Assembly: GCA_964344575.1 (NCBI GenBank)
Contig: CAYFOA010000020.1
Location: forward strand, 691-64,690
Source: an uncultured Rickettsiales bacterium
GTDB taxonomy: Bacteria; Myxococcota_A; UBA796; UBA9615
DNA: 64,000 nucleotides
Reading direction: 5' to 3'
Part shown: in pieces, positions 5,672 to 15,139 of the stretch
Numbering within the stretch: position 1 is the stretch's first letter
Layout: every line of letters starts with the position of its first letter
The notes under the pieces: model-generated
The model's input: the letters and a program-made list of their open reading frames with translations, nothing else
The model's database searches: none
Told to the model about the DNA's origin: nothing
Made by a program: the position numbers and the translations under genes

Positions 5672-8600
5672 ATGCGCCCCGCCCGCCTCCTCGCCCTCGC
5701 CCTCGGACTCCTCCTCCCCGCCTCCGCGTCCGCCGACTTCGCGACCTGGGGGAGCGAGGCCGGGTTCCTCGCCGGGACCCTCACCGACGCCACCGTGGAC
5801 CCCGCCGGCGTCGTCACGATCCCCGTGGGAGGCGACTGGTTCGACCCCGCCTGGTCCCACCGCGCCGCCGTCACCGTCACCGACGGCTCGGGCACCGCGC
5901 TGACCGACTACTCCGTCCAGGTCACCGTCGACACCGCCGCCCTGATCGCCGCCGGCCAGCTCGAGGCCGACGGACGCGACCTCCGCTTCGTCGACGTCGC
6001 CACGGGCGCGCTCCTCGGCCACTGGGTCGAGTCCGGGATGGACACCGCGTCGACCCTGATCTGGGTCCTCGTCCCCTCGATCCCCGCCGGCGGCTCGACC
6101 GACCTGTGGATGTACCACGGCAACCCCGCCGCGACCGACGTCAGCGACCGGACCGCGGCGATGCTCGCCTTCGACGACTTCGACGACGGCACCATCGACG
6201 GCCTGTCGTCGCAGGGGCTCGACGGCAACCCCGACGAGACCTGGTCCGTCAGCAGCGGCGAGGCCTACAACACCAACGACGTCTACTCCCGCGCGTCCCT
6301 GCTCGTGGACGACGTCGAGCTCGCCGACGACTTCCGCATCGAGACGTCGGCCTACACCAACGACAACGACGGCCTCGGCGTCGTCACCCACGTCGACGCG
6401 ACCGGGGACGAGTACTACTTCGCCCAGACCTGGGGCGGCTCGACGTCCCGCAGCGGCATCGGCGAGGACGCCACCGAGGGGGACGCCGTGGTGAGCGCCG
6501 GCCTCTCGGTCTGCTGCGGCGACGTCCACACCTACGGCCTCATCGTCACCGGCGGCGAGCTGCGGATGCTCTTCGACGGCTCCGAGGTGGCGACGTACGT
6601 CGATCCCACCCCCAAGCCGGCCGGCCGCGTGGGGATCCTCTCCGCCCTCAACAACCCCGCCGGCTACTTCGACTACGTCCAGCTCCGGCGCTACGTCGAG
6701 CCCGAGCCGACCGCCGTGGTGAGCGGCTCCCAGCCCGGCGCCGGCGCGTCGGGGACGTGGGAGTCCGAGGTGTTCGACGGCGGCTGCCCGACCGTCGCGT
6801 GGTCCGAGCTGACGTGGACCGAGACCCTCCCCACGGGCGCCGACGTCGTCCTCGAGCTCCGCACCGGCGCGACCGCCGTCGTCGACGGCACGTGGTCGGC
6901 GTGGACGGGCCCCTACTCCGACTCCGCCGGGTCCGCCGTCTCTGCGCCCGGCGACCGCTACGCCCAGGTCCGGGCCACGCTGTCAGCGGCCCTCGGCGGG
7001 GACAGCCCCGAGCTGACCGACGTGAGCCTCGAGTACACCGCGGCCGCCGACGCGGACGGCGACGGGTTCGACTCCGTGGACTGCGGGGGGACCGACTGCG
7101 ACGACGACGACGACACCGTCTACCCCGGCGCCGAGGAGGTCTGCGCCGACGCGATCGACAGCGACTGCGACGGCAGCCTCGTCGACGAGTTCCCCGACAC
7201 CGACGGCGACGGCACCCCCGACTGCCTCGACCCCGACGACGACGACGACGGCTACCCCGACGCGGTCGACTGCGCCCCCCTCGACCCGACGATCCACCCC
7301 CTCGCGGCGGAGTCCTGCGACGCGATCGACAGCGACTGCGACGGCGACCTCGTCGACGGCTTCCCCGACTTCGACGGCGACGGCGACCCCGACTGCAACG
7401 ACCCCGACGACGACGACGACGGGATCGGCGACAGCGTCGACTGCGCCCCCTTCGACCCGGCCGTCTACCCGGGCGCCGACGAGGTCTGCGACAGCGTCGA
7501 CAACGACTGCGACGGCGACCTCGGCTGGGACGACTTCGACGGGGACGGCGACCCCGACTGCAGCGACGAGGACGACGACGACGACGGCTACCCCGACGCG
7601 GTCGACTGCGAACCCTTCGACGCGTCGATCCACCCCCTCGCGACCGAGGCCTGCGACTGCACCGACGCGGACGACGACGGCGACGGCCTCGGGGACGGCG
7701 CGGAGGCCGCGGCGGGGACCGACCCGCTGGACCCCGACACCGACGACGACGGCCTGACGGACGCCGAGGAGGTGGAGGCCGGCTCCGACCCCCTGGACGA
7801 CGACACCGACGACGACGGCGTGGGCGACGCGGACGAGGTCGGCGACGACCCGTCGGACCCCGCCGACAGCGACGGCGACGGCCTGTACGACTTCGAGGAC
7901 GCCGACGACGACGACGACGGCATCCCGACCGCGGACGAGGGAGACCAGGACACCGACGGCGACGGCGTCCCCAACCACCTCGACGACGACAGCGACGGCG
8001 ACGGCTTCTCCGACGCGGAGGAGGGCGGGGGCGACGCGGACGGCGACGGCGTCATCAACTCGCAGGACACCGACGCCGACGGCCAGGACGGCACCGACGA
8101 CGAGGACGGCGACGGGGACGCGGACGCGGACGGGATCCCCGACTACCTCGACGTGGACGACACCGACGGCCCCACCGCCGACGCCGACGGCGACGGCCTC
8201 ACCAACGCCGAGGAGCTCGAGCTGGGGACCGATCCCCAGGACGACGACACCGACGACGACGGCCTGAGCGACAGCGAGGAGGCGGGCGACGACGGCACGG
8301 GCACCGACCCCCTCGACGACGACACCGACGACGACGGCCTGACGGACGGCGAGGAGGCCGGCGACGGGGGCACCGGGACCGACCCCCTGGACGCCGACTC
8401 GGACAACGACGGGCTCGCGGACGGCGACGAGACCGACGTCCACGGCACCGACCCGCTGGACGACGACACGGACGACGACGGCTACGGCGACGGGGACGAG
8501 ATCGACGCGGGCACCGACCCCCTCGACCCGGACGATCCGGACGCGGCGGCCGACGACGACGACACCGGCGCGATCGGCGACGACGACGACGACGCAGACG

Positions 8601-8779
8601 ACGACGACTCGGCGGAACCCGGCCCGGACTGCGGCTGCGCGAGCTCGCTCGCGGACGGCGGCGGCGGCGCCCCGGCCGCAGCCCTCCTCCTGCTCCTCCT
8701 CCTCGGCGTCCGCGCGAGGACGCCAGAACGAGGAACGCCCCTCGATGGGGGCACCGAGGGGCGTTCTTCGTGTCCTTGA
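5672..8779 (+). CDS. Large surface protein: DUF2341-like domain, lectin-like domain, Cys/Asp metal-binding repeats, TSP3-like Asp repeats, MYXO-CTERM-like tail
   Basis: Signal peptide; GRDLRFVD...[19 protein letters not shown] (DUF2341-like); [24 protein letters not shown] repeats; [15 protein letters not shown] repeats; GCGCASS...[15 protein letters not shown]. Confidence 0.85.
7148..7640 (+). repeat. Coding tandem repeat, 171-nt (57-aa) period, about 3 copies
   Basis: gacgcgatcgacagcgactgcgacggc at 7148 and 7319; variant gacagcgtcgacaacgactgcgacggc at 7490. Confidence 0.85.
8728..8771 (+). terminator. Hairpin (17-bp stem with one G-T pair, 10-nt loop), probable intrinsic terminator
   Basis: acgaggaacgcccctcg (8728-8744) pairs with cgaggggcgttcttcgt (8755-8771). 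It lies within the last codons of the 5672-8779 ORF and has only a weak U-tract. Confidence 0.6.
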
Positions 8780-9072: not shown

Positions 9073-9128
9073 TTTCAATCTGAATATCTCAATTTGAAAC
9101 CTTTGTCATTCCATTTCGAAACGTTTCA
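9073..9128 (+). promoter_or_regulatory. AT-rich control region: SigW-like ECF promoter overlapped by tandem near-palindromes
   Basis: TGAAACCTTT (9095-9104) with CGAA at 9117-9120 (16 nt after TGAAAC). Tandem TTTCAATCTGAAT (9073) and TCTCAATTTGAAA (9087). Palindromes TTTCGAAA (9114-9121) and GAAACGTTTC (9118-9127). Confidence 0.5.
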
Positions 9129-9190
9129 TATTGCAACGCTCGATCCGGGCCCCGGGAAGGGCTATTGTGGTCGGTACGCAGGAGGCCGCT

Positions 9191-9433
9191 GTGAAGGAGC
9201 TCGTGGAGCAGATGGTGAAGGCCTTGGTGGATCGGCCCGAAGAGGTCGTGGTGACCGAGGTGGAGGGGACGCACAGCAGCGTCATCGAGTTGAAGGTCGC
9301 CAAGGAGGACATCGGCAAGGTGATCGGCAAGAAGGGCGCCCACGCGCAGGCCTTGCGGACGATCATCACGGCCGCCGGCGGCAAGAGGAAGAAACGGTAC
9401 GTCCTCGAAATCCTCGAAGATCGTCATTACTAG
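9191..9433 (+). CDS. khpA: Single KH-domain RNA-binding protein (KhpA/YlqC family)
   Basis: GGAGG at 9181-9185 then GTG 9191. MKELVEQMVKALVDRPEEV...LKVAKEDIGKVIGKKG with intact GxxG loop; 80 aa. Confidence 0.9.
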   Translation: MKELVEQMVKALVDRPEEVVVTEVEGTHSSVIELKVAKEDIGKVIGKKGAHAQALRTIITAAGGKRKKRYVLEILEDRHY

Positions 9434-9466
9434 GAAGAGCGCGCGGGGGACGGGGGTTGTGCTCGC

Positions 9467-10066
9467 ATGACCCCGACGTTGAAGCTCGTGCCTGACCCCG
9501 CACCCGCCAAGCCGAAGACGAACGACGAGGACATCAAGCTCGTCGCGCGCACCGATCGCGATCGGGCCTTCTCGATGCTCGTCGACCGGTACCGGGATCG
9601 CATCTACTACCACGCGCTGTACATCACCAAGGACAGCGAGGAGGCGTTCGACGTCGCCCAGGACGTGTTCGTCCGCGGCTACCACGAGCCCCGGCTCTTC
9701 AACGACGAGTTCCGCACCAAGGCGTGGCTGTTCCGGGTCTGCACGAACCGCTGCTACAACATCGTCCGCGACCGGCACCGCCGCAGCGGCATCCTCGACC
9801 GGCTGGGCAAGGCCACGGTCGTCCTCCAGGAGCAGCACAAGGCCATCGACGACGTCATGGCGCGCGAGCTGTCCGAGGGAATGGCGGCGGCGATGGAGAA
9901 GCTCAGCCCGGAACATCGTACGATCCTCCTGCTGAGGTACTACGACGACCTGTCGTACAAGGAGATCGCGGACGTGCTGGACGTCAAACTGGGGACCGTC
10001 ATGAGCCGCCTCTCCCGGGCCAAGGTCCGGCTCGCGGCCGTCATCGGGGAGGATCTGCCCGCATGA
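9467..10066 (+). CDS. ECF RNA polymerase sigma factor (RpoE/SigW-like)
   Basis: AFDVAQDVFVR, KAWLFRVCTN, LSYKEIADVLDVKLGTVMSRLSRAK. Confidence 0.95.
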   Translation: MTPTLKLVPDPAPAKPKTNDEDIKLVARTDRDRAFSMLVDRYRDRIYYHALYITKDSEEAFDVAQDVFVRGYHEPRLFNDEFRTKAWLFRVCTNRCYNIVRDRHRRSGILDRLGKATVVLQEQHKAIDDVMARELSEGMAAAMEKLSPEHRTILLLRYYDDLSYKEIADVLDVKLGTVMSRLSRAKVRLAAVIGEDLPA

Positions 10067-10704
10067 ACTGTTGGCGCGTGGGGAACCTGATCGCCCCCTT
10101 CATCGACGACGAGCTCCCCGACGCGGAGAGCGACGCCGTCGCCACCCACCTCGAGCAGTGCGACGCCTGCGCCGAGTCCGTGGAAGCGGTGGCGTCCCTG
10201 CCCGAGTTCGAGCGCGTCGCCGTGGACCCGAAGGTCGAGAAGTCGCTCTTCGCCGAGTTCGACCGCTGCCTCGCCGAGCGCATCCGGCAGTCGCTGGTGC
10301 CCGCCGAGGACGAGGCCGCCGAGCTGGCCCCCACGGGGACGTTCGGGGGGCTCATCCGGCGCGAGGTCCGCGTCCCCGTCGCGCTCGTCGCCGCCTACGC
10401 CGGCGTCGCGCTGATGCTCGGCGGCGGCATCATCCTGAACTACCAACGGGTCGCCGACCTGCAGATCGCCGTCGGCGAGCGCGACGCGATCATCGACAGC
10501 ATGCGCGTCCGCCTCGCCGCCGCCGAGCGCGGCGACGACGACTTCACCCTCGTCTCCCGCGACGCCGCGCTCGACGAGCAGCCGAACGTCGTCTTCTTCC
10601 CGTCGGGCGTGACCACGACCGGCCTGCCCGCCGCCGCCGCCCAGCCGGTGATGCCGGCCTCCTTCCAGCTCGGCCCCGCCGAGTCGCCGCGGGTCGTTCA
10701 GTAG
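10063..10704 (+). CDS. Zinc-binding anti-sigma factor (zf-HC2/ZAS) with single TM helix
   Basis: ATGA overlap with the sigma stop; MNC...FIDDEL...HLEQCDAC (HxxxCxxC); TM VALVAAYAGVALMLGGGIIL. Confidence 0.9.
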   Translation: MNCWRVGNLIAPFIDDELPDAESDAVATHLEQCDACAESVEAVASLPEFERVAVDPKVEKSLFAEFDRCLAERIRQSLVPAEDEAAELAPTGTFGGLIRREVRVPVALVAAYAGVALMLGGGIILNYQRVADLQIAVGERDAIIDSMRVRLAAAERGDDDFTLVSRDAALDEQPNVVFFPSGVTTTGLPAAAAQPVMPASFQLGPAESPRVVQ

Positions 10705-10711
10705 CGGGCCG

Positions 10712-11971
10712 ATGCGCCACCTGACCGTCCTCGCTGCGGCGCTCTGCCTCTGCGTCCTTCACGTCGCCGCCGCGCTGGCCGAAGAGCCGCTCCGGGGGGA
10801 CTTCCCGCCCCGCGCCAACGACGAGGCGAACGCGCCCGGCGGCGATCTCGACGCGGCCGCCGCGGAGGATCTCGCCCGCCGCGTCCACGCCCTCCTCCTG
10901 GAGCGCCTCGGGCCCGACGTCGTCACCGACGCGGAGCTGTGGATGGGCGCCGTGCAGGGGATGCTCGACGTCGCCAACCGCGCCCACGCCGACGGCGTGT
11001 CCCGCACCCAGGCGGCCCTCCCCCCGGCCAACATGCTGATGAACGCGGACGACGCCTCCCGCCTCGGGGACGCGCTCCGGGGGAACCTCAGCGGCGTCGG
11101 GATCGAGTTCAAGCTCTACTCCCGCCCGGGCGTCCTGGTCGTCTCCCGCGTCCTCCCGGGGAGCCCTGCGGAGGCGGCGGGCATGCTCGCCGGCGACCGG
11201 ATCGTGGCGCTCGACGGGCGCGGCCTCGCGGGCCTCGACCTCCAGGGCGTCCTCGGCCTCCTCCAGGGCGACGAGGGGTCGCAGATCGCGGTCCAGTTCC
11301 AGCGCGGGGACGGCCTCGCGGTGGGTGCGTTCGCCGTCGGCGTACAGCGCGCGGCGTTCCAGGTCCGGTCCACCGTCGACGAGCTCCGGCACGGCGGCGT
11401 GGGCTACATCCGCGTCTTCGGCTTCCACCGGGGGACCCCCGTGGAGGTCAAGGAGGCCGTCGAACGGCTCGAGAAGCTGGGCGCCGATCGCTACGTCCTC
11501 GACCTCCGGAACAACCACGGCGGCGACCTCGTCGGCGCGTTCGGCGTGGCGGACCTCTTCCTCAAACGAGGCACCGTGCTCGGCCGGATCGTGGAGCCCG
11601 GCGTGGGCGAGCAGGACGTCGCCGCCGAGGCGAAGCCCGTCACCGACGCGAACCTCGTCGTGCTGGTCAACGCGTGGACCCACGGCGCCGCCGAGGCCGT
11701 CGCGGCGGCGCTCCAGGAGCACGACCGCGCCTACGTCATCGGCGAGCCGACGATGGGCTCGGCCCGCACCGAGACCCTCGTCCAGGTGGGCGATTCGCTC
11801 GTCCTGCGGATCGCGTCGGTGCGCCTCCTCACCCCCACCGGGCGGAGCTGGCAGAGCCGCGGCGTGCTCCCCGACCAGCCCTTCTGGGGCCCCGGCGACG
11901 AGGACGAGGGGTCGGCCAACGACCAGGCTTTCGACATGGCCGTCCACTACCTGGAGACCGAGGGGGGTTGA
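10712..11971 (+). CDS. S41/CtpA-like PDZ protein, predicted catalytically inactive
   Basis: Signal peptide; LSGVGI PDZ loop; GYIRV..F, DLRNNHGG, TPTGRS...GVLPD. VLVNAWTHGAAE aligns to VLVNxxSASASE, and EPTMGSA aligns to ExTFGKG. Confidence 0.85.
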   Translation: MRHLTVLAAALCLCVLHVAAALAEEPLRGDFPPRANDEANAPGGDLDAAAAEDLARRVHALLLERLGPDVVTDAELWMGAVQGMLDVANRAHADGVSRTQAALPPANMLMNADDASRLGDALRGNLSGVGIEFKLYSRPGVLVVSRVLPGSPAEAAGMLAGDRIVALDGRGLAGLDLQGVLGLLQGDEGSQIAVQFQRGDGLAVGAFAVGVQRAAFQVRSTVDELRHGGVGYIRVFGFHRGTPVEVKEAVERLEKLGADRYVLDLRNNHGGDLVGAFGVADLFLKRGTVLGRIVEPGVGEQDVAAEAKPVTDANLVVLVNAWTHGAAEAVAAALQEHDRAYVIGEPTMGSARTETLVQVGDSLVLRIASVRLLTPTGRSWQSRGVLPDQPFWGPGDEDEGSANDQAFDMAVHYLETEGG

Positions 11972-12034
11972 GGGGCCGCGACCCGGTCGCGTAGACTCCC
12001 GGTCTGCATCTGGGGGATGCAGCAAAAGGACCGG

Positions 12035-13612
12035 ATGGCCAAGAGAAAGTCGCGCAGCAAGGCAGCGAGCGAGTCCGCGGGAACGGATCTGCTGGCCCAG
12101 CTGGCAGGTCTCGGTTCCGACGGCCGGACCGGGACGCTGCACATCGACCGTCCGCGGGGCGCGCGCATCGACGTGCACCTGATGATGGGGTCGATCATCG
12201 CCGCGTCGGGGCAGGACGACGACAAGGCGCTCGGCCGGATCCTCGTGGCCACGGGGGTCATCGACCCCGACGCGCTCGAGACGATCACGATGGACATCAA
12301 GGGGGACGAGGACTTCGCCGACCTCCTCGTCGGCGCGGGCGCGGTCCCCGGCGACCGGATGATGGCGGCGGGCCGGATGCTCTTCCACGACAACCTCGCC
12401 CGCGCGCTCGGACCGGACGGCGCGGCCGCGGAGTTCGAGGAGCAGGACGCCGTGTTCCCCTCGAACATGCAGCTGGGGCTGGACCGGGACGAGCTGCTCC
12501 ACGGCGTCGCCGAGTGGAAGGGGCGCGCGGCCGCGTTCCTGAACGGCCTCGGCGAGGACGGCGTCCACGCGGCGACGGGAGACTGCCCCGACGGGACGTC
12601 GCCGGCGGTGTGGGAGCGGCTGGCGCAGGCGCGGCCCCTGTCCGAGCTGATCGAGCTGGTGGGGACGTCCTACGTTCACGCCGCCGAGATGCTCGCGGCG
12701 TGGCTCGAGTCCGGGGCGGTGGCCCCCGCCGAGGAGGACGACTACGCCAAGGCCGCCCGCGGCGGCTTCGTGAAGTCGTACGAGGTGCTCGACAAGGTCG
12801 ATCTCCAGGGCGTGGCGATCATCGGCGCCGAGGCGCCCGCGCCCCCCTCGGGCTCCAGCATGGAGGCGATCGAGGCGGTCGCCATGGACGACGAGGACTT
12901 CGAGGTCGAGCTCGGCGACGGCGAGAGCGCCGACATGGAGGCGCTGATCGCGGACGACAGCGCCGACGTGGCCGCGGACGTGGACGCGGACGGCGACTAC
13001 GACCCCGACGACGAGCCGACCATGGCGGCGGCCCGGCCGAACCTCGAGCAGACCCGCCCCGACCAGGCCGCGCTCCGGCCCGACGCCCCGCCGCCCGGCT
13101 CGGGCGACACGAGCGAGCTCGGCGACGACGACTTCGCGATCTTCGACGGCGGACCCAGCAGCGGCGAGCTCGACGCGGTCATCGACGAGACGGGGTCGAT
13201 CAAGATCGGCCGGAGCGGCGGCCCGTTCACGCGCGAGCAGCTCAACGAGTTCGAGGGCCGGATCAAGGTCTTCAACAACATCTTCCGGGTGATCTTCGAG
13301 ACGTTCGCCGAGCACATCACCGAGGAGAAGTCGATCCAGCGGTTCAACGCGCTGCTGGGGAGCGGGCAGCGGCAGTACCCCGAGCTGTTCCGCGATCTCA
13401 GCGTCGGCGAGGACGGCACCGTCCCCACGAGCCCCCTGATCAACAACCTCGCCGAGTGCCCCCCCGGCGACTACGGCGCGCTCCTGCACCAGGGGCTCTA
13501 CGAGCTGATCTTCAGCCACCTCTACGACGCGAAGGACATGCTCCCGGGCGAGGCCGAGTCGGAGATGATGGAGAAGATCGTCATCTTCGAGCGCCAGCTC
13601 CACCAGATGTGA
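12035..13612 (+). CDS. DUF4388/PatA-N-like protein with long acidic linker and helical C-terminal domain
   Basis: RTGTLHIDR...DVHLMMGSIIAAS...LGRILVATG..LLVGAG pattern; D/E-rich centre; C-terminal ELFRDLSVGEDGTV...LYELIF. Start placed at ATG 12035 (AAGGA upstream); 12017 is possible. Confidence 0.6.
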   Translation: MAKRKSRSKAASESAGTDLLAQLAGLGSDGRTGTLHIDRPRGARIDVHLMMGSIIAASGQDDDKALGRILVATGVIDPDALETITMDIKGDEDFADLLVGAGAVPGDRMMAAGRMLFHDNLARALGPDGAAAEFEEQDAVFPSNMQLGLDRDELLHGVAEWKGRAAAFLNGLGEDGVHAATGDCPDGTSPAVWERLAQARPLSELIELVGTSYVHAAEMLAAWLESGAVAPAEEDDYAKAARGGFVKSYEVLDKVDLQGVAIIGAEAPAPPSGSSMEAIEAVAMDDEDFEVELGDGESADMEALIADDSADVAADVDADGDYDPDDEPTMAAARPNLEQTRPDQAALRPDAPPPGSGDTSELGDDDFAIFDGGPSSGELDAVIDETGSIKIGRSGGPFTREQLNEFEGRIKVFNNIFRVIFETFAEHITEEKSIQRFNALLGSGQRQYPELFRDLSVGEDGTVPTSPLINNLAECPPGDYGALLHQGLYELIFSHLYDAKDMLPGEAESEMMEKIVIFERQLHQM

Positions 13613-14249
13613 GCGCGTAGCGCACCAGCTCGTCGAAGGCGTCGATCCGGACATCCGCGTCGTCCGGCGCGTCCGGCGTGAAGCCCCCCCAGGAGCACCA
13701 CACCGACGTCATCTCCGCGGCCGCGGCCGCCTCGACGTCCACGTCCGAGTCGCCCACGTAGATCGACTCCGCGGGGTGCGCGCCGATCTTCCCCGCGGCG
13801 ATGAGGAGCATGTCCGGCGCCGGCTTCTTGGGGAACCGGCCGCCGCCGAGCATGAAGCCGAAGTACTGCGCGAGGTCGAGCCCCTCGAGGATCTCCATCG
13901 CCGGGGCGTGGGGCTTGTTGGTGACCACCGCGAGGGCGACGCCGTGGTCCTGGAGGCGCTCCAGGCCGTCGACCACGCCGGGGAACGGGGCCGTCGTGTC
14001 GAGCATGATCCGGCCGTAGTGGGCGAGGAACTCCAACACCAGCGGCTCGTCGACGGACGCGCCGGGATCCACGGCCTCGAGGCACCGGGCCAGCAGCATG
14101 CGGGCGCCGCGACCCACGAACGTCGCGATCCGGTCCTCCGGCAGCGCCGGGTAGCCGCGGTCCTGGAGCGCCCGGTTGGCCGCCTCGGCGAGGTCCCCGC
14201 GGGAGTCGATCAGCGTGCCGTCGAGGTCGAAGAGCACGCCCCGGGTCAC
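13581..14249 (-). CDS. gph: Phosphoglycolate phosphatase-like HAD hydrolase
   Basis: GTG 14249 in GTGA overlap with the MTase stop; FDLDGTLIDS, VVTNK, KKPAPD, YVGDSDVD. Confidence 0.85.
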   Translation of the reverse strand: MTRGVLFDLDGTLIDSRGDLAEAANRALQDRGYPALPEDRIATFVGRGARMLLARCLEAVDPGASVDEPLVLEFLAHYGRIMLDTTAPFPGVVDGLERLQDHGVALAVVTNKPHAPAMEILEGLDLAQYFGFMLGGGRFPKKPAPDMLLIAAGKIGAHPAESIYVGDSDVDVEAAAAAEMTSVWCSWGGFTPDAPDDADVRIDAFDELVRYALTSGGAGARR

Positions 14250-15139
14250 GGTGTCCCCCGGACCTTGGCGCGGTTCGCCGCCATGCGGGACGTCGCCCGG
14301 TCGAGGTCGTCGAGGCTGTGCTCCCCGCGGACCACCGCCGCGACCCGCTCCCGCGCCCACCCGGCGTACTCCCCTTCCCGCTCGCAGATCGCCCACCGCC
14401 GCCCCAGCAGCTCGCACACCACGGCCGTCGTGCCGCTCCCTCCGAAGGGGTCGATCACGAGATCGCCGGGGTCGCTGCTCGCCGCCACCAGCCGCCGGAT
14501 CAGCTCCTCGGGCTTCTGCGTGGGGTGCGGCGTCTTCTCCGCCATGCCGTTGTTGAGGATGGGGATCTCGAGGACGTCGCGGGGGCGCGCGCCGCCGGGG
14601 TGGGGGCTCCACGACGTCCCCGCCGCGCCGGCCCCCCCGAACTGCGAGCTCGCCCCCTGCTTCCGCTCCGGGTAGCGCTTCGTGTGGGCGTTGTAGGGGA
14701 CCCGCACCGCGTCGACGTTCATCGTGTACGCGCGCCCCTTGCGGAGGTGCAGGAGCGACTCGTGGCTGCGGCCCCAGTCGTCGCGCAGGTTCCCCTTGTT
14801 GCGGTACGCCCAGACCAGCCAGCGGCACCCCGTGAAGAGGTCGCCGGCCGCCCACTTGAGGTCCGCGAGCGCCTCGCTGAAGCCCATGACGTAGGCGCTG
14901 CCGGTGGGGGCCAGGACCCGGGCGACGTCCTCCAGCCAGCCGCGCGCCCAGCGGACGTAGTCCTGCCGCGAGTCCCAGGTGTCCCACCACGCCTTGGCGA
15001 TGCCGTAGGGGGGGTCGGCGACGACGAGATCGACGGACGCGTCGGGCAACGAGGCCAGCCACGCGAGCGAGTCGCCGTGGAGGAGACGGCCGAGGTCCGT
15101 CTCGAGGAGGAGCGCCGGAGCGTCAGCCGCCGAAGACAT
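14246..15139 (-). CDS. Site-specific DNA amino-methyltransferase (N6-A/N4-C), beta-class order, orphan
   Basis: DPPY near the N-terminus; HPTQKPEELIRRLV; DPFGGSGTT near the C-terminus. No adjacent endonuclease gene. Confidence 0.92.
   Translation of the reverse strand: MSSAADAPALLLETDLGRLLHGDSLAWLASLPDASVDLVVADPPYGIAKAWWDTWDSRQDYVRWARGWLEDVARVLAPTGSAYVMGFSEALADLKWAAGDLFTGCRWLVWAYRNKGNLRDDWGRSHESLLHLRKGRAYTMNVDAVRVPYNAHTKRYPERKQGASSQFGGAGAAGTSWSPHPGGARPRDVLEIPILNNGMAEKTPHPTQKPEELIRRLVAASSDPGDLVIDPFGGSGTTAVVCELLGRRWAICEREGEYAGWARERVAAVVRGEHSLDDLDRATSRMAANRAKVRGTP

What the first reader, a model, noticed from the sequence alone, without database searches (positions are those of the whole stretch)
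9191..11971. Candidate new envelope-signalling module: ECF sigma + ZAS anti-sigma + catalytically dead CtpA-like PDZ protein
Seen directly: the S41-like gene begins 7 bp after the anti-sigma stop. Aligning to the S41A consensus, the catalytic Ser (SAS*ASE) is Gly325 (GGC at 11684, THG*AAE) and the catalytic Lys 25 residues later (TFGK*G) is Ser350 (TCG at 11759, TMGS*A). The signal peptide, PDZ carboxylate loop (LSGVGI), DLRNNxGG and TPxGRS..GV.PD motifs remain and the ORF is intact. Established: Prc/CtpA proteases use a Ser-Lys dyad and can trim periplasmic anti-sigma tails. Inference: a pseudo-protease that binds C-termini (e.g. the anti-sigma tail ...SPRVVQ) and acts as a shield, sensor or adaptor, functionally like RseB but from an unrelated fold. 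I do not know a described system of this kind.
Basis: partly seen in the sequence, partly recalled or inferred. Interest (0 to 1): 0.78.

Follow-up and report, generated by a model that had tools for sequence, protein, structure and literature searches.

The report
Dead CtpA-like protease partnering an anti-sigma factor
A periplasmic protein with the full CtpA protease fold but no catalytic residues sits in one operon with a stress sigma factor and its membrane anti-sigma factor across a whole bacterial class, and most likely grips the anti-sigma factor's conserved tail instead of cutting it.

Summary
Gene 10712-11971 encodes a signal-peptide PDZ/S41 protein with Gly325, Ser350 and Glu354 in place of the Ser-Lys-Gln catalytic residues of CtpA/CtpB. 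It starts 7 bp after a ZAS anti-sigma gene, which overlaps an ECF sigma gene.

This is not decay or a sequencing error. All 50 orthologue clusters of the window's family have Gly at the Ser position and none has Lys. dN/dS is 0.09-0.25. The AlphaFold model (pLDDT 89.7) matches solved CtpA (TM 0.83).

The sigma has one orthologue in 140 of 151 genomes of the class. In eight families the order is sigma, anti-sigma, S41, PATAN/DUF4388 protein. Of 55 sigma-linked S41 genes, 46 lack Lys, 44 lack Ser and all lack Gln. Only two sister families of the window's own order keep Ser and Lys. The dyad was therefore lost at least twice.

Anti-sigma factors next to an S41 gene end in clade-conserved C-terminal motifs on a predicted disordered tail. 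Those without an S41 gene mostly do not.

Best reading: a protease-derived clamp on the anti-sigma tail that controls anti-sigma stability. Binding, and the direction of its effect, are inferred and untested. I found no described equivalent.

The parts
9191..9433 (+). KhpA-like KH-domain RNA-binding gene (80 aa from GTG 9191). It is a conserved neighbour of the module and probably not part of its mechanism.
   Evidence: PF13083 at 80.6 bits. It is the only small KhpA-type gene in the genome. It is co-oriented with sigma in family f1 and divergent in f2/f3 and other families.
9433..9460 (+). ECF-type promoter candidate: GGAAGA (9433-9438), 17 nt spacer, GTTGT (9456-9460). It ends 6 nt before the sigma ATG.
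   Evidence: GGAA[TG]D-N16-17-GTY lies upstream of sigma in 28 of 31 distinct loci, against 1.8% of shuffled sequences. Promoter function is inferred.
9467..10066 (+). ECF (group 4) sigma factor, 199 aa.
   Evidence: Sigma70_r2, Sigma70_r4_2 and TIGR02937 at 96.7 bits against a cut-off of 42.9. There is a single orthologue in 140/151 genomes of the class.
10063..10704 (+). Class I ZAS anti-sigma factor, 213 aa. It has a cytoplasmic zinc-motif domain (C3, H29-x3-C33-x2-C36), one transmembrane helix and a periplasmic juxtamembrane helix.
   Evidence: zf-HC2 at 30.2 bits. C3, H29, C33 and C36 are invariant in 25 orthologues. The AF2 model has helices 3-78 and one long helix 106-160.
10546..10701 (+). 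Periplasmic tail of the anti-sigma factor (residues 162-213). It is predicted disordered and carries a PVFLPxxAP-type motif and the extreme C-terminal motif ESPRVVQ (10681-10701).
   Evidence: pLDDT is below 50 for residues 162-165 and 167-213. The C-terminal consensus [DE][GS][PL]R[VI][VI][HR] holds in 25 distinct orthologues.
10712..11971 (+). Periplasmic S41/CtpA-fold pseudo-protease, 419 aa. It has a signal peptide (about residues 1-23), N-terminal helices, a PDZ domain (about 124-200; 11081-11311), an S41 core (230-389; 11399-11878) and a C-terminal helix.
   Evidence: Pfam. AF2 pLDDT 89.7 and pTM 0.81. Foldseek best match is CtpA 8sxg_A, TM 0.83.
11684..11686 (+). Gly325 (GGC) at the position of the catalytic Ser.
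   Evidence: It is invariant in 50/50 family members.
11759..11761 (+). Ser350 (TCG) at the position of the catalytic Lys.
   Evidence: In the family this position is S26, A9, V8, T4, G1, R1, E1 and never K.
11771..11773 (+). Glu354 at the position of the triad Gln.
   Evidence: Gln is replaced in all 55 sigma-linked S41 genes of the class-wide locus survey. Ten of the 50 f1 protein clusters read Gln here, as do four f1 loci of the survey, so the loss is not absolute within f1.
12017..13612 (+). PATAN/DUF4388-domain protein, 531 aa, with no signal peptide. It is the last gene of the conserved cluster.
   Evidence: PF14332 with E 3e-5. It lies on the same strand downstream of sigma in 88/94 loci from 12 families.

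Best explanation
The window carries a class-wide signalling operon. An autoregulated ECF sigma factor is held at the inner membrane by a zinc-motif (ZAS) anti-sigma factor. The short periplasmic part of that anti-sigma factor is one helix followed by a roughly 50-residue disordered tail ending in a conserved C-terminal motif. The next gene encodes a secreted protein with the complete CtpA/CtpB architecture: dimerisation helices, PDZ with an intact carboxylate-binding loop, and protease cap and core. It lacks the Ser, Lys and Gln needed for hydrolysis. I propose that it uses the ancestral substrate-capture apparatus (PDZ groove plus the narrow tunnel) to hold the anti-sigma tail without cutting it. 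It would then act as a co-anti-sigma factor that sets how accessible the anti-sigma factor is to real site-1 proteases. The genome has at least three intact CTP paralogues and an RseP-type site-2 protease. A signal that frees the tail, for example competing exposed C-termini, would then start regulated proteolysis and release sigma. Shown here: the loss of catalytic residues, its conservation under purifying selection, the fold, the synteny, and the association between S41 presence and conserved tail motifs. Inferred: physical binding of the tail, the direction of the effect (shield, or adaptor that delivers the tail), and the nature of the signal.
For: Catalytic residues replaced. W322, T323 and G325 are invariant and no Lys occurs in 50 clusters at 43-70% identity. 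dN/dS is 0.09-0.25 overall and 0.05-0.15 in the dead core. The model has the full CtpA fold and lies closer to the CtpB 'active state' (4c2c, TMq 0.63) than to its 'resting state' (4c2e, 0.51). It also lies closer to some H. pylori CtpA conformers (0.82) than to the 'all-resting' entry (0.59-0.62). The PDZ carboxylate loop G124/G128/G130 is invariant. A Ser-less CtpB still binds a C-terminal peptide and closes into the active conformation (PMC3808539). One orthologue is present in 25/25 genomes of the order, always in the same cluster. The anti-sigma tail is predicted disordered yet ends in a conserved motif. Class survey of 94 loci: 54 anti-sigma factors with an S41 neighbour have clade-conserved tails. 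These are ..YTPxRG[TS][FL], SYAPVQQ[TM][FY], P[AIL][GE]Y, N[VL]VH and [SG][PL]R[VI][VI][HR]. Of 20 without an S41 neighbour, 17 have unconserved polar or acidic ends. The dyad was lost independently at least twice within the sigma-linked clade, so the conserved function does not need catalysis. Three paralogues with intact Ser/Lys/Gln and an M50 protease are present in the genome.
Against: The association of tail motif with S41 presence rests on few independent evolutionary events (S41 loss in f5, f10, f6, f11 and part of f4). One locus (L140) keeps the tail motif without an S41 gene. In the window's family the last residue is His/Arg/Gln, which is atypical for CTP-type PDZ ligands that prefer non-polar ends. 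Operon membership could equally mean that the protein is an output of the sigma factor rather than its regulator.
Confidence: 0.6

Rival explanations
1. The pseudo-protease is an output of the sigma regulon rather than a regulator of the anti-sigma factor. It would bind other periplasmic C-termini, or form mixed oligomers with the active CtpA paralogues through the conserved N- and C-terminal dimerisation helices. It would thereby tune turnover of envelope proteins such as cell-wall hydrolases.
For: The gene lies in the autoregulated operon. The N- and C-terminal helices used by CtpA/CtpB for oligomerisation are kept in the model. Three intact CTP paralogues exist in the genome. CtpA is known to degrade cell-wall hydrolases (abstracts of PMC6050968 and PMC11021448).
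Against: It does not explain why conserved anti-sigma C-terminal motifs occur where the S41 gene is present and are mostly absent where it is missing. It also does not explain why the S41 gene always sits immediately after the anti-sigma gene.
Confidence: 0.2
2. The protein delivers rather than shields. As an adaptor, it captures the anti-sigma tail and hands it to an active protease, so it is needed for activation of the sigma factor and not for its repression.
For: The evidence is the same as for tail binding. Adaptor-dependent CTPs are established (NlpI-Prc and LbcA-CtpA structures among the fold matches). In P. aeruginosa, CTPs act both positively and negatively on anti-sigma levels (10.1101/2023.03.13.532344; PMC10392083, listed).
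Against: Known adaptors are TPR lipoproteins, not dead paralogues. No partner protease is encoded in the cluster.
Confidence: 0.12
3. The protein is still a hydrolase that uses a repositioned or unconventional catalytic set.
For: Family-invariant polar residues exist (H239, E245, D302, T323, R366). Sister families keep Ser and Lys.
Against: The nucleophile position is Gly in 50/50, and Gly or Ala in 43 of 55 sigma-linked S41 genes across the class. The base position is variable and never Lys outside f2/f3. T323 is the ancestral S/T at position -2 and is also present in active CTPs. H239 also occurs in the Ser/Lys-bearing relatives. The Gln is replaced, and Q338E alone abolishes CtpB activity.
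Confidence: 0.04
4. The gene is a decaying relic with no function, or the substitutions are assembly errors.
For: All sources are metagenome-assembled genomes.
Against: The ORF is intact in every locus, and identical substitutions appear in 50 independent clusters and 15 species genomes. dN/dS is far below 1 and 50 columns are invariant.
Confidence: 0.02

Closest known systems
RseA-RseB-DegS-RseP control of sigma-E in E. coli
   Same: A membrane anti-sigma factor has a periplasmic partner protein encoded in the sigma operon that governs access of the site-1 protease. PDZ domains read exposed C-termini as the stress signal (review PMC8103513).
   Different: RseB has an unrelated fold. RseA is not a ZAS protein. 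The PDZ sensor sits on the active protease DegS. Here the PDZ belongs to a dead S41 protein, and the candidate ligand is the anti-sigma factor's own C-terminus.
Prc and CtpA acting on cell-surface-signalling anti-sigma factors in Pseudomonas (10.1101/2023.03.13.532344; PMC10392083)
   Same: S41 C-terminal processing proteases modulate the level of an ECF anti-sigma factor. CtpA seems to prevent Prc-mediated proteolysis of the anti-sigma factor.
   Different: Those enzymes are catalytically active housekeeping proteases encoded elsewhere. Their proteolytic activity is required for signalling (section heading).
CtpB in the SpoIVFB / pro-sigma-K pathway of B. subtilis (PMC3808539)
   Same: The fold is the same. 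The PDZ gates a narrow tunnel, and binding of a C-terminal peptide closes the enzyme even in the S309A mutant. The pathway ends in sigma activation by intramembrane proteolysis.
   Different: CtpB is active with Ser309-Lys334-Gln338. Its substrate SpoIVFA is not an anti-sigma factor. The genes are not in one operon with the sigma factor.
IRBP (retinol-binding protein 3), the vertebrate non-catalytic S41 homologue (PMC10120077)
   Same: An S41 peptidase fold lost the catalytic Ser and took on a binding function. IRBP chains are among the sequence matches of this protein.
   Different: IRBP is eukaryotic, has four tandem domains, lacks the PDZ domain and binds retinoids. It has no link to transcription control.
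NCBIfam pair GFO_1088 ECF sigma (NF058625) / GFO_1087 putative carboxy-terminal peptidase (NF058627)
   Same: The adjacent numbering of these curated families suggests an ECF-S41 gene pair elsewhere (inference from names only).
   Different: Scores are far below the cut-offs (82 against 130 bits, and 34 against 455 bits). The window's proteins are not members. The catalytic status of that family was not examined.

Membership tests
MEROPS S41A / C-terminal processing peptidase (CtpA, CtpB, Prc) | Peptidase_S41 domain (PF03572) above the gathering score | tested here: met
   115.1 bits against a cut-off of 24.
MEROPS S41A / C-terminal processing peptidase (CtpA, CtpB, Prc) | PDZ domain inserted before the protease core, with a carboxylate-binding loop | tested here: met
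   PDZ_6 at 48.4 bits over residues 143-198. G124, G128 and G130 are invariant.
MEROPS S41A / C-terminal processing peptidase (CtpA, CtpB, Prc) | Overall CtpA/CtpB fold | tested here: met
   Foldseek 8sxg_A, E 2e-30, TM 0.83 normalised by target, on a model with pLDDT 89.7.
MEROPS S41A / C-terminal processing peptidase (CtpA, CtpB, Prc) | Nucleophilic Ser | tested here: not met
   Gly325. Gly in 50/50 orthologues.
MEROPS S41A / C-terminal processing peptidase (CtpA, CtpB, Prc) | General-base Lys about 25 residues downstream of the Ser | tested here: not met
   Ser350. No Lys in any of the 50 orthologues.
MEROPS S41A / C-terminal processing peptidase (CtpA, CtpB, Prc) | Triad Gln four residues after the Lys | tested here: not met
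   Glu354. Q338E abolishes CtpB function (PMC3808539).
MEROPS S41A / C-terminal processing peptidase (CtpA, CtpB, Prc) | NCBIfam TIGR00225 'prc' subfamily cut-off | tested here: not met
   184.6 bits against a cut-off of 218.6.
MEROPS S41A / C-terminal processing peptidase (CtpA, CtpB, Prc) | Proteolytic activity | not testable with these tools
   This needs an enzyme assay.
ECF (group 4) sigma factors | Sigma-2 and sigma-4 domains only, with a match to the ECF superfamily model | tested here: met
   PF04542, PF08281 and TIGR02937 at 96.7 against 42.9 bits. No ECF-group (ECF Hub) assignment was possible.
Class I ZAS anti-sigma factors | N-terminal anti-sigma domain with H-x3-C-x2-C plus an upstream Cys/His ligand | tested here: met
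   zf-HC2 at 30.2 against 22.2 bits. C3, H29, C33 and C36 are invariant. The four-helix N-terminal domain is modelled at pLDDT 87-96. Zinc binding was not tested.
RseB family | RseB/MucB fold or sequence family | tested here: not met
   Pfam and NCBIfam give no RseB/MucB match, and the fold is S41. Only a functional analogy is proposed.

The most novel reading that the evidence does not exclude
The sigma-linked S41 proteins are a class-wide family of protease-derived 'tail clamps' that sense envelope state by competitive displacement. The anti-sigma C-terminus would occupy the PDZ and tunnel of the dead protease. In most clades that C-terminus ends in ..RG[TS]F or ..QQ[TM][FY], which resembles the aromatic C-termini of outer-membrane proteins. 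Accumulating unassembled proteins with similar ends would displace it, expose the anti-sigma factor to active CTPs and RseP, and switch on the sigma factor. Catalysis was discarded independently at least twice because holding, not cutting, is the selected activity.
Probability: 0.3. Interest if true: 0.85.

Novelty: new variant of a known kind. Interest (0 to 1): 0.68.

Why it matters
Control of ECF sigma factors by regulated proteolysis is a central model of bacterial trans-envelope signalling. The known accessory proteins are either active proteases or unrelated shields such as RseB. Here a pseudo-enzyme derived from the protease family itself is a fixed, operon-encoded partner of an anti-sigma factor across a whole class, and catalysis was lost repeatedly. 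That would add a bacterial counterpart to iRhom- or IRBP-type pseudo-proteases. It would give a natural series (Ser/Lys-bearing, half-dead and dead orthologues in one gene context) for studying how a protease becomes a receptor. It would also provide a compact sigma / anti-sigma / clamp set with a defined peptide ligand that could be reconstituted as an orthogonal switch.

Tried and rejected
1. Sequencing error or recent decay: rejected by 50/50 conservation and dN/dS.

2. Ser350 or Thr323 as a new nucleophile: rejected. Position 350 is variable, and T323 is the ancestral S/T also present in active CTPs.

3. Lipoprotein signal: the LAAALC and LCLC contexts do not fit a lipobox, so cleavage by signal peptidase I after ALA23 is assumed from inspection.

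4. NG86 dN/dS on distant pairs is uninformative. GC3 of 0.94-0.96 compresses dS to about 0.6-0.75, so only the closest pairs were used.

5. A single loss on the f1 stem from an active ancestor was my reading. It was revised after the class survey showed dead versions in five further families.

6. My first search used N4 spacing and found nothing. N3 is the correct spacing.

7. A genome-wide scan for GGAATA-N16-17-GTY to define the regulon gave 10 hits against 0 for the reversed control. The downstream ORFs were mostly unconvincing, so this was dropped.

8. ECF-group assignment: the classification paper has no mention of S41 or PDZ in the text and no supplements are held.

9. PDB sequence search with the DUF4388 protein gave nothing.

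Full report
**1. What is in the window**

The region has about 73% G+C. Five genes lie on the + strand.
- A KhpA-like KH gene at 9191-9433. The GTG start sits behind AGGAGG, and the ORF finder's longer TTG start at 9131 is not supported by orthologues.
- An ECF sigma factor at 9467-10066.
- An anti-sigma factor at 10063-10704, whose ATG overlaps the sigma stop (ATGA).
- A PDZ/S41 protein at 10712-11971, starting 7 nt after the anti-sigma stop.
- A DUF4388 (PATAN) protein at 12017-13612, 45 nt further on.

**2.

HMMER alignment to P. aeruginosa CtpA (7RPQ) puts Gly325 at the catalytic Ser, Ser350 at the Lys and Glu354 at the triad Gln. The codons are GGC at 11684 and TCG at 11759. All other S41 and PDZ motifs are present. 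The AlphaFold2 model built on 50 orthologues is confident (pLDDT 89.7, pTM 0.81). Its best structural matches are CtpA of P. aeruginosa and H. pylori (TM 0.81-0.84) and then CtpB.

The model is closer to the entry described as the active state of CtpB (4c2c, TMq 0.63) than to its resting state (4c2e, 0.51). It is also closer to some H. pylori conformers (0.82) than to the all-resting entry (0.59-0.62). I could not inspect model coordinates, so nothing can be said about side-chain geometry.

**3. It is a stable pseudo-enzyme**

A search of 5.8 billion proteins returned a sharply bounded family. Fifty-one clusters (P0002-P0052) score 261-603 bits at 43-74% identity, and the next hits are true CtpA enzymes at 152 bits. 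I aligned 50 full-length members, counting the window's own protein, for the residue counts below.
- W322, T323 and G325 are invariant.
- The Lys position reads S/A/V/T/G/R/E and never K.
- R352 is nearly invariant.
- For the closest gene pairs dN/dS is 0.09-0.25. It is 0.05-0.15 in the dead core, even though GC3 of 0.94-0.96 compresses dS.
- The window's genome (8.34 Mb, 98% complete) has five other S41 paralogues. Three of them have intact Ser/Lys/Gln. It also has an RseP-type M50 protease.

**4. The link to the sigma / anti-sigma pair**

Every locus with enough flank has the order KH, sigma, anti-sigma, S41, DUF4388. This covers 12 loci from species genomes and about 20 from metagenomes. 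All 25 species genomes of the order have exactly one orthologue.

A motif GGAAT(A)-N16-17-GT(C/T) lies upstream of sigma in 28 of 31 distinct loci, against 1.8% of shuffles. This is a typical ECF promoter shape. In the window it lies at 9433-9460, between the KH stop and the sigma ATG.

The anti-sigma factor has an invariant C3...H29-x3-C33-x2-C36 motif. Its model shows a four-helix cytoplasmic domain and one long helix (106-160) that spans the membrane and continues into the periplasm. Residues 162-213 fall below pLDDT 50. Within that otherwise variable tail, a PVFLPxxAP motif and the extreme C-terminus [DE][GS][PL]R[VI][VI][HR]-COOH are conserved in 25 distinct orthologues.

**5. Sister families keep the dyad**

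In the two other families of the same order (f2 and f3, 36-38% identity), the same sigma / anti-sigma / S41 / DUF4388 cluster is present, with the KH gene divergent. There the S41 protein keeps Lys in 10 of 10 and Ser in 9 of 10. One f2 locus has Ala at the Ser position. Gln is already Glu or Asp. Their anti-sigma tails end differently: P[AIL][GE]Y in f3 and N[VL]VH in f2. In CtpB, Q338E alone abolishes activity (PMC3808539). Whether these Ser/Lys-bearing versions are active is therefore open.

**6. The module is class-wide**

The sigma factor has a single orthologue (41-57% identity outside the window's order) in 140 of 151 sampled genomes of the class. I fetched 94 loci from 12 families. The main results were:
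- **PATAN gene:** it follows sigma on the same strand in 88 of 94 loci.
- **S41 present:** an S41 gene lies between the anti-sigma and PATAN genes in f1, f2, f3, f71, f7, f8, most of f9 and about half of f4.
- **S41 absent:** it is missing in f5 (0/22), f10 (0/8), f6 and f11. In f10 no ZAS anti-sigma gene was detected either.
- **Catalytic residues:** of 55 sigma-linked S41 genes, the Ser position is Gly in 39, Ala in 4, Gln in 1 and Ser in 11. The Lys position is Lys in only 9, all in f2/f3. Gln is replaced in all of them apart from four f1 loci, and ten of the 50 f1 protein clusters also read Gln there. Only 8 of the 55 have both Ser and Lys.

A maximum-likelihood tree separates canonical CTPs, the window's order (f1 sister to f2+f3) and a clade of the other five families, with 99-100% support. 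Rooted on the canonical enzymes, this needs at least two independent losses of the dyad, plus the Ser->Ala change in one f2 locus. One loss is on the f1 stem and one in the other clade. A plausible order of events is an early loss of Gln followed by separate decay of Lys and Ser. That order is inference.

**7. Tails track the S41 gene**

The 54 anti-sigma factors with an S41 neighbour and a readable end all carry a clade-conserved C-terminal motif:

| Families | C-terminal motif |
|---|---|
| f4, f7, f9, f71 | ..[YH]TPxRG[TS][FL] |
| f8 | SYAPVQQ[TM][FY] |
| f3 | P[AIL][GE]Y |
| f2 | N[VL]VH |
| f1 (window) | [SG][PL]R[VI][VI][HR] |

Of 20 ZAS anti-sigma factors without an S41 neighbour, 17 end in unconserved polar or acidic residues. 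Three end in an aromatic residue, and one of those (L140) looks like a recent S41 loss. The number of independent evolutionary events behind this association is small. It is suggestive, not proof.

**8. Mechanism**

Established knowledge (PMC3808539):
- CTPs capture a substrate's free C-terminus in the PDZ groove.
- This closes the enzyme and threads the unfolded chain through a tunnel about 7 Å wide to the Ser/Lys/Gln site.
- A Ser->Ala CtpB still binds the peptide and closes.

A version lacking all three catalytic residues but keeping the PDZ loop, cap and core should therefore hold a tail without cutting it. The conserved disordered tail of the co-encoded anti-sigma factor is the obvious ligand, since it is exposed in the same compartment. 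I rate this at 0.6.

Whether the clamp protects the anti-sigma factor (RseB-like) or presents it to an active protease cannot be decided here. The signal cannot be decided either. Competitive displacement by other exposed C-termini is attractive, because most clades' tails end like outer-membrane-protein C-termini. That is speculation.

**9. Comparison with what is known**

Literature searches found:
- active CTPs acting on anti-sigma factors (Prc/CtpA in Pseudomonas cell-surface signalling);
- CtpB in the sigma-K pathway;
- IRBP as a non-catalytic eukaryotic S41 homologue.

They found no operon-encoded dead S41 partner of an ECF/anti-sigma pair. The ECF reclassification paper does not mention S41 or PDZ neighbours in its text. 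The NCBIfam family names GFO_1088 and GFO_1087 hint at an ECF-S41 pair in Bacteroidota, but the window's proteins are far below those cut-offs.

Earlier notes of this scan record the same kind of gene trio in another genome (Gly and Val at the dyad, not followed up). They also record an anti-sigma factor fused to a dead S41 domain. These are leads, not independent evidence.

**10. Verdict**

The feature is a new variant of a known kind of system, namely anti-sigma control by CTP-family proteins. The source organisms are uncultured, high-G+C MAGs of 4-10 Mb labelled Deltaproteobacteria or Proteobacteria in the records. Any test must therefore be heterologous.

Noticed in passing
window 12017-13612; loci L089-L168: The PATAN/DUF4388 protein is the most constant neighbour of this ECF sigma. 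It lies on the same strand downstream in 88/94 loci of 12 families. This includes family f10, where neither a ZAS anti-sigma gene nor an S41 gene was detected and it directly follows sigma. It may be a cytoplasmic regulator or the prime target of the sigma factor. Its C-terminal domain of about 140 aa has no Pfam or PDB match.
   Followed up: partly
window 9073-9136: Three overlapping or tandem TTTCA-N3-TGAAA palindromes lie upstream of the KhpA-like gene. Only two other sites with one mismatch or fewer exist in the 8.3 Mb genome. Related copies (GTTTCA-N3-TGAAAC) lie upstream of the KH gene in all 13 family loci examined. The binding factor is unknown. A sigma-70-like CTAnAAT box follows.
   Followed up: partly
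window 9191-9433: The KhpA-like KH gene is the only small KhpA-type gene of the genome. It is 63-92% identical across the class and stays beside the sigma gene. It is co-oriented in family f1 and divergent in f2, f3 and several other families.
   Followed up: partly
window 9456-9469: The ECF-type -10 element ends 6 nt before the sigma ATG in this genome, whereas other loci have 45-120 nt of leader. This suggests a leaderless sigma mRNA here, or dependence on the upstream KH promoter.
   Followed up: no
own genome C162:1398-1889 (L050): A 531-aa S41 paralogue keeps the Ser but has Met at the Lys position and Ser at the Gln position. This is a second possibly non-canonical S41 protein in the same genome.
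   Followed up: no
L093 (family f2), S41 gene: The Ser nucleophile is replaced by Ala while the Lys is retained. This is an intermediate state between the Ser/Lys-bearing and fully dead orthologues.
   Followed up: partly
window 5672-8779: A large secreted protein of 1035 aa lies directly upstream. It is highly acidic and has a DUF2341 domain and many bacterial TSP3 (thrombospondin type 3) calcium-binding repeats. It is not conserved next to the module in relatives.
   Followed up: no
window 14246-15139 (- strand): An ORF with a DPPY motif typical of N6/N4 DNA methyltransferases lies next to a HAD phosphatase-like ORF (about 13581-14250, - strand), convergent with the module. This is seen only in the ORF translations.
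   Followed up: no
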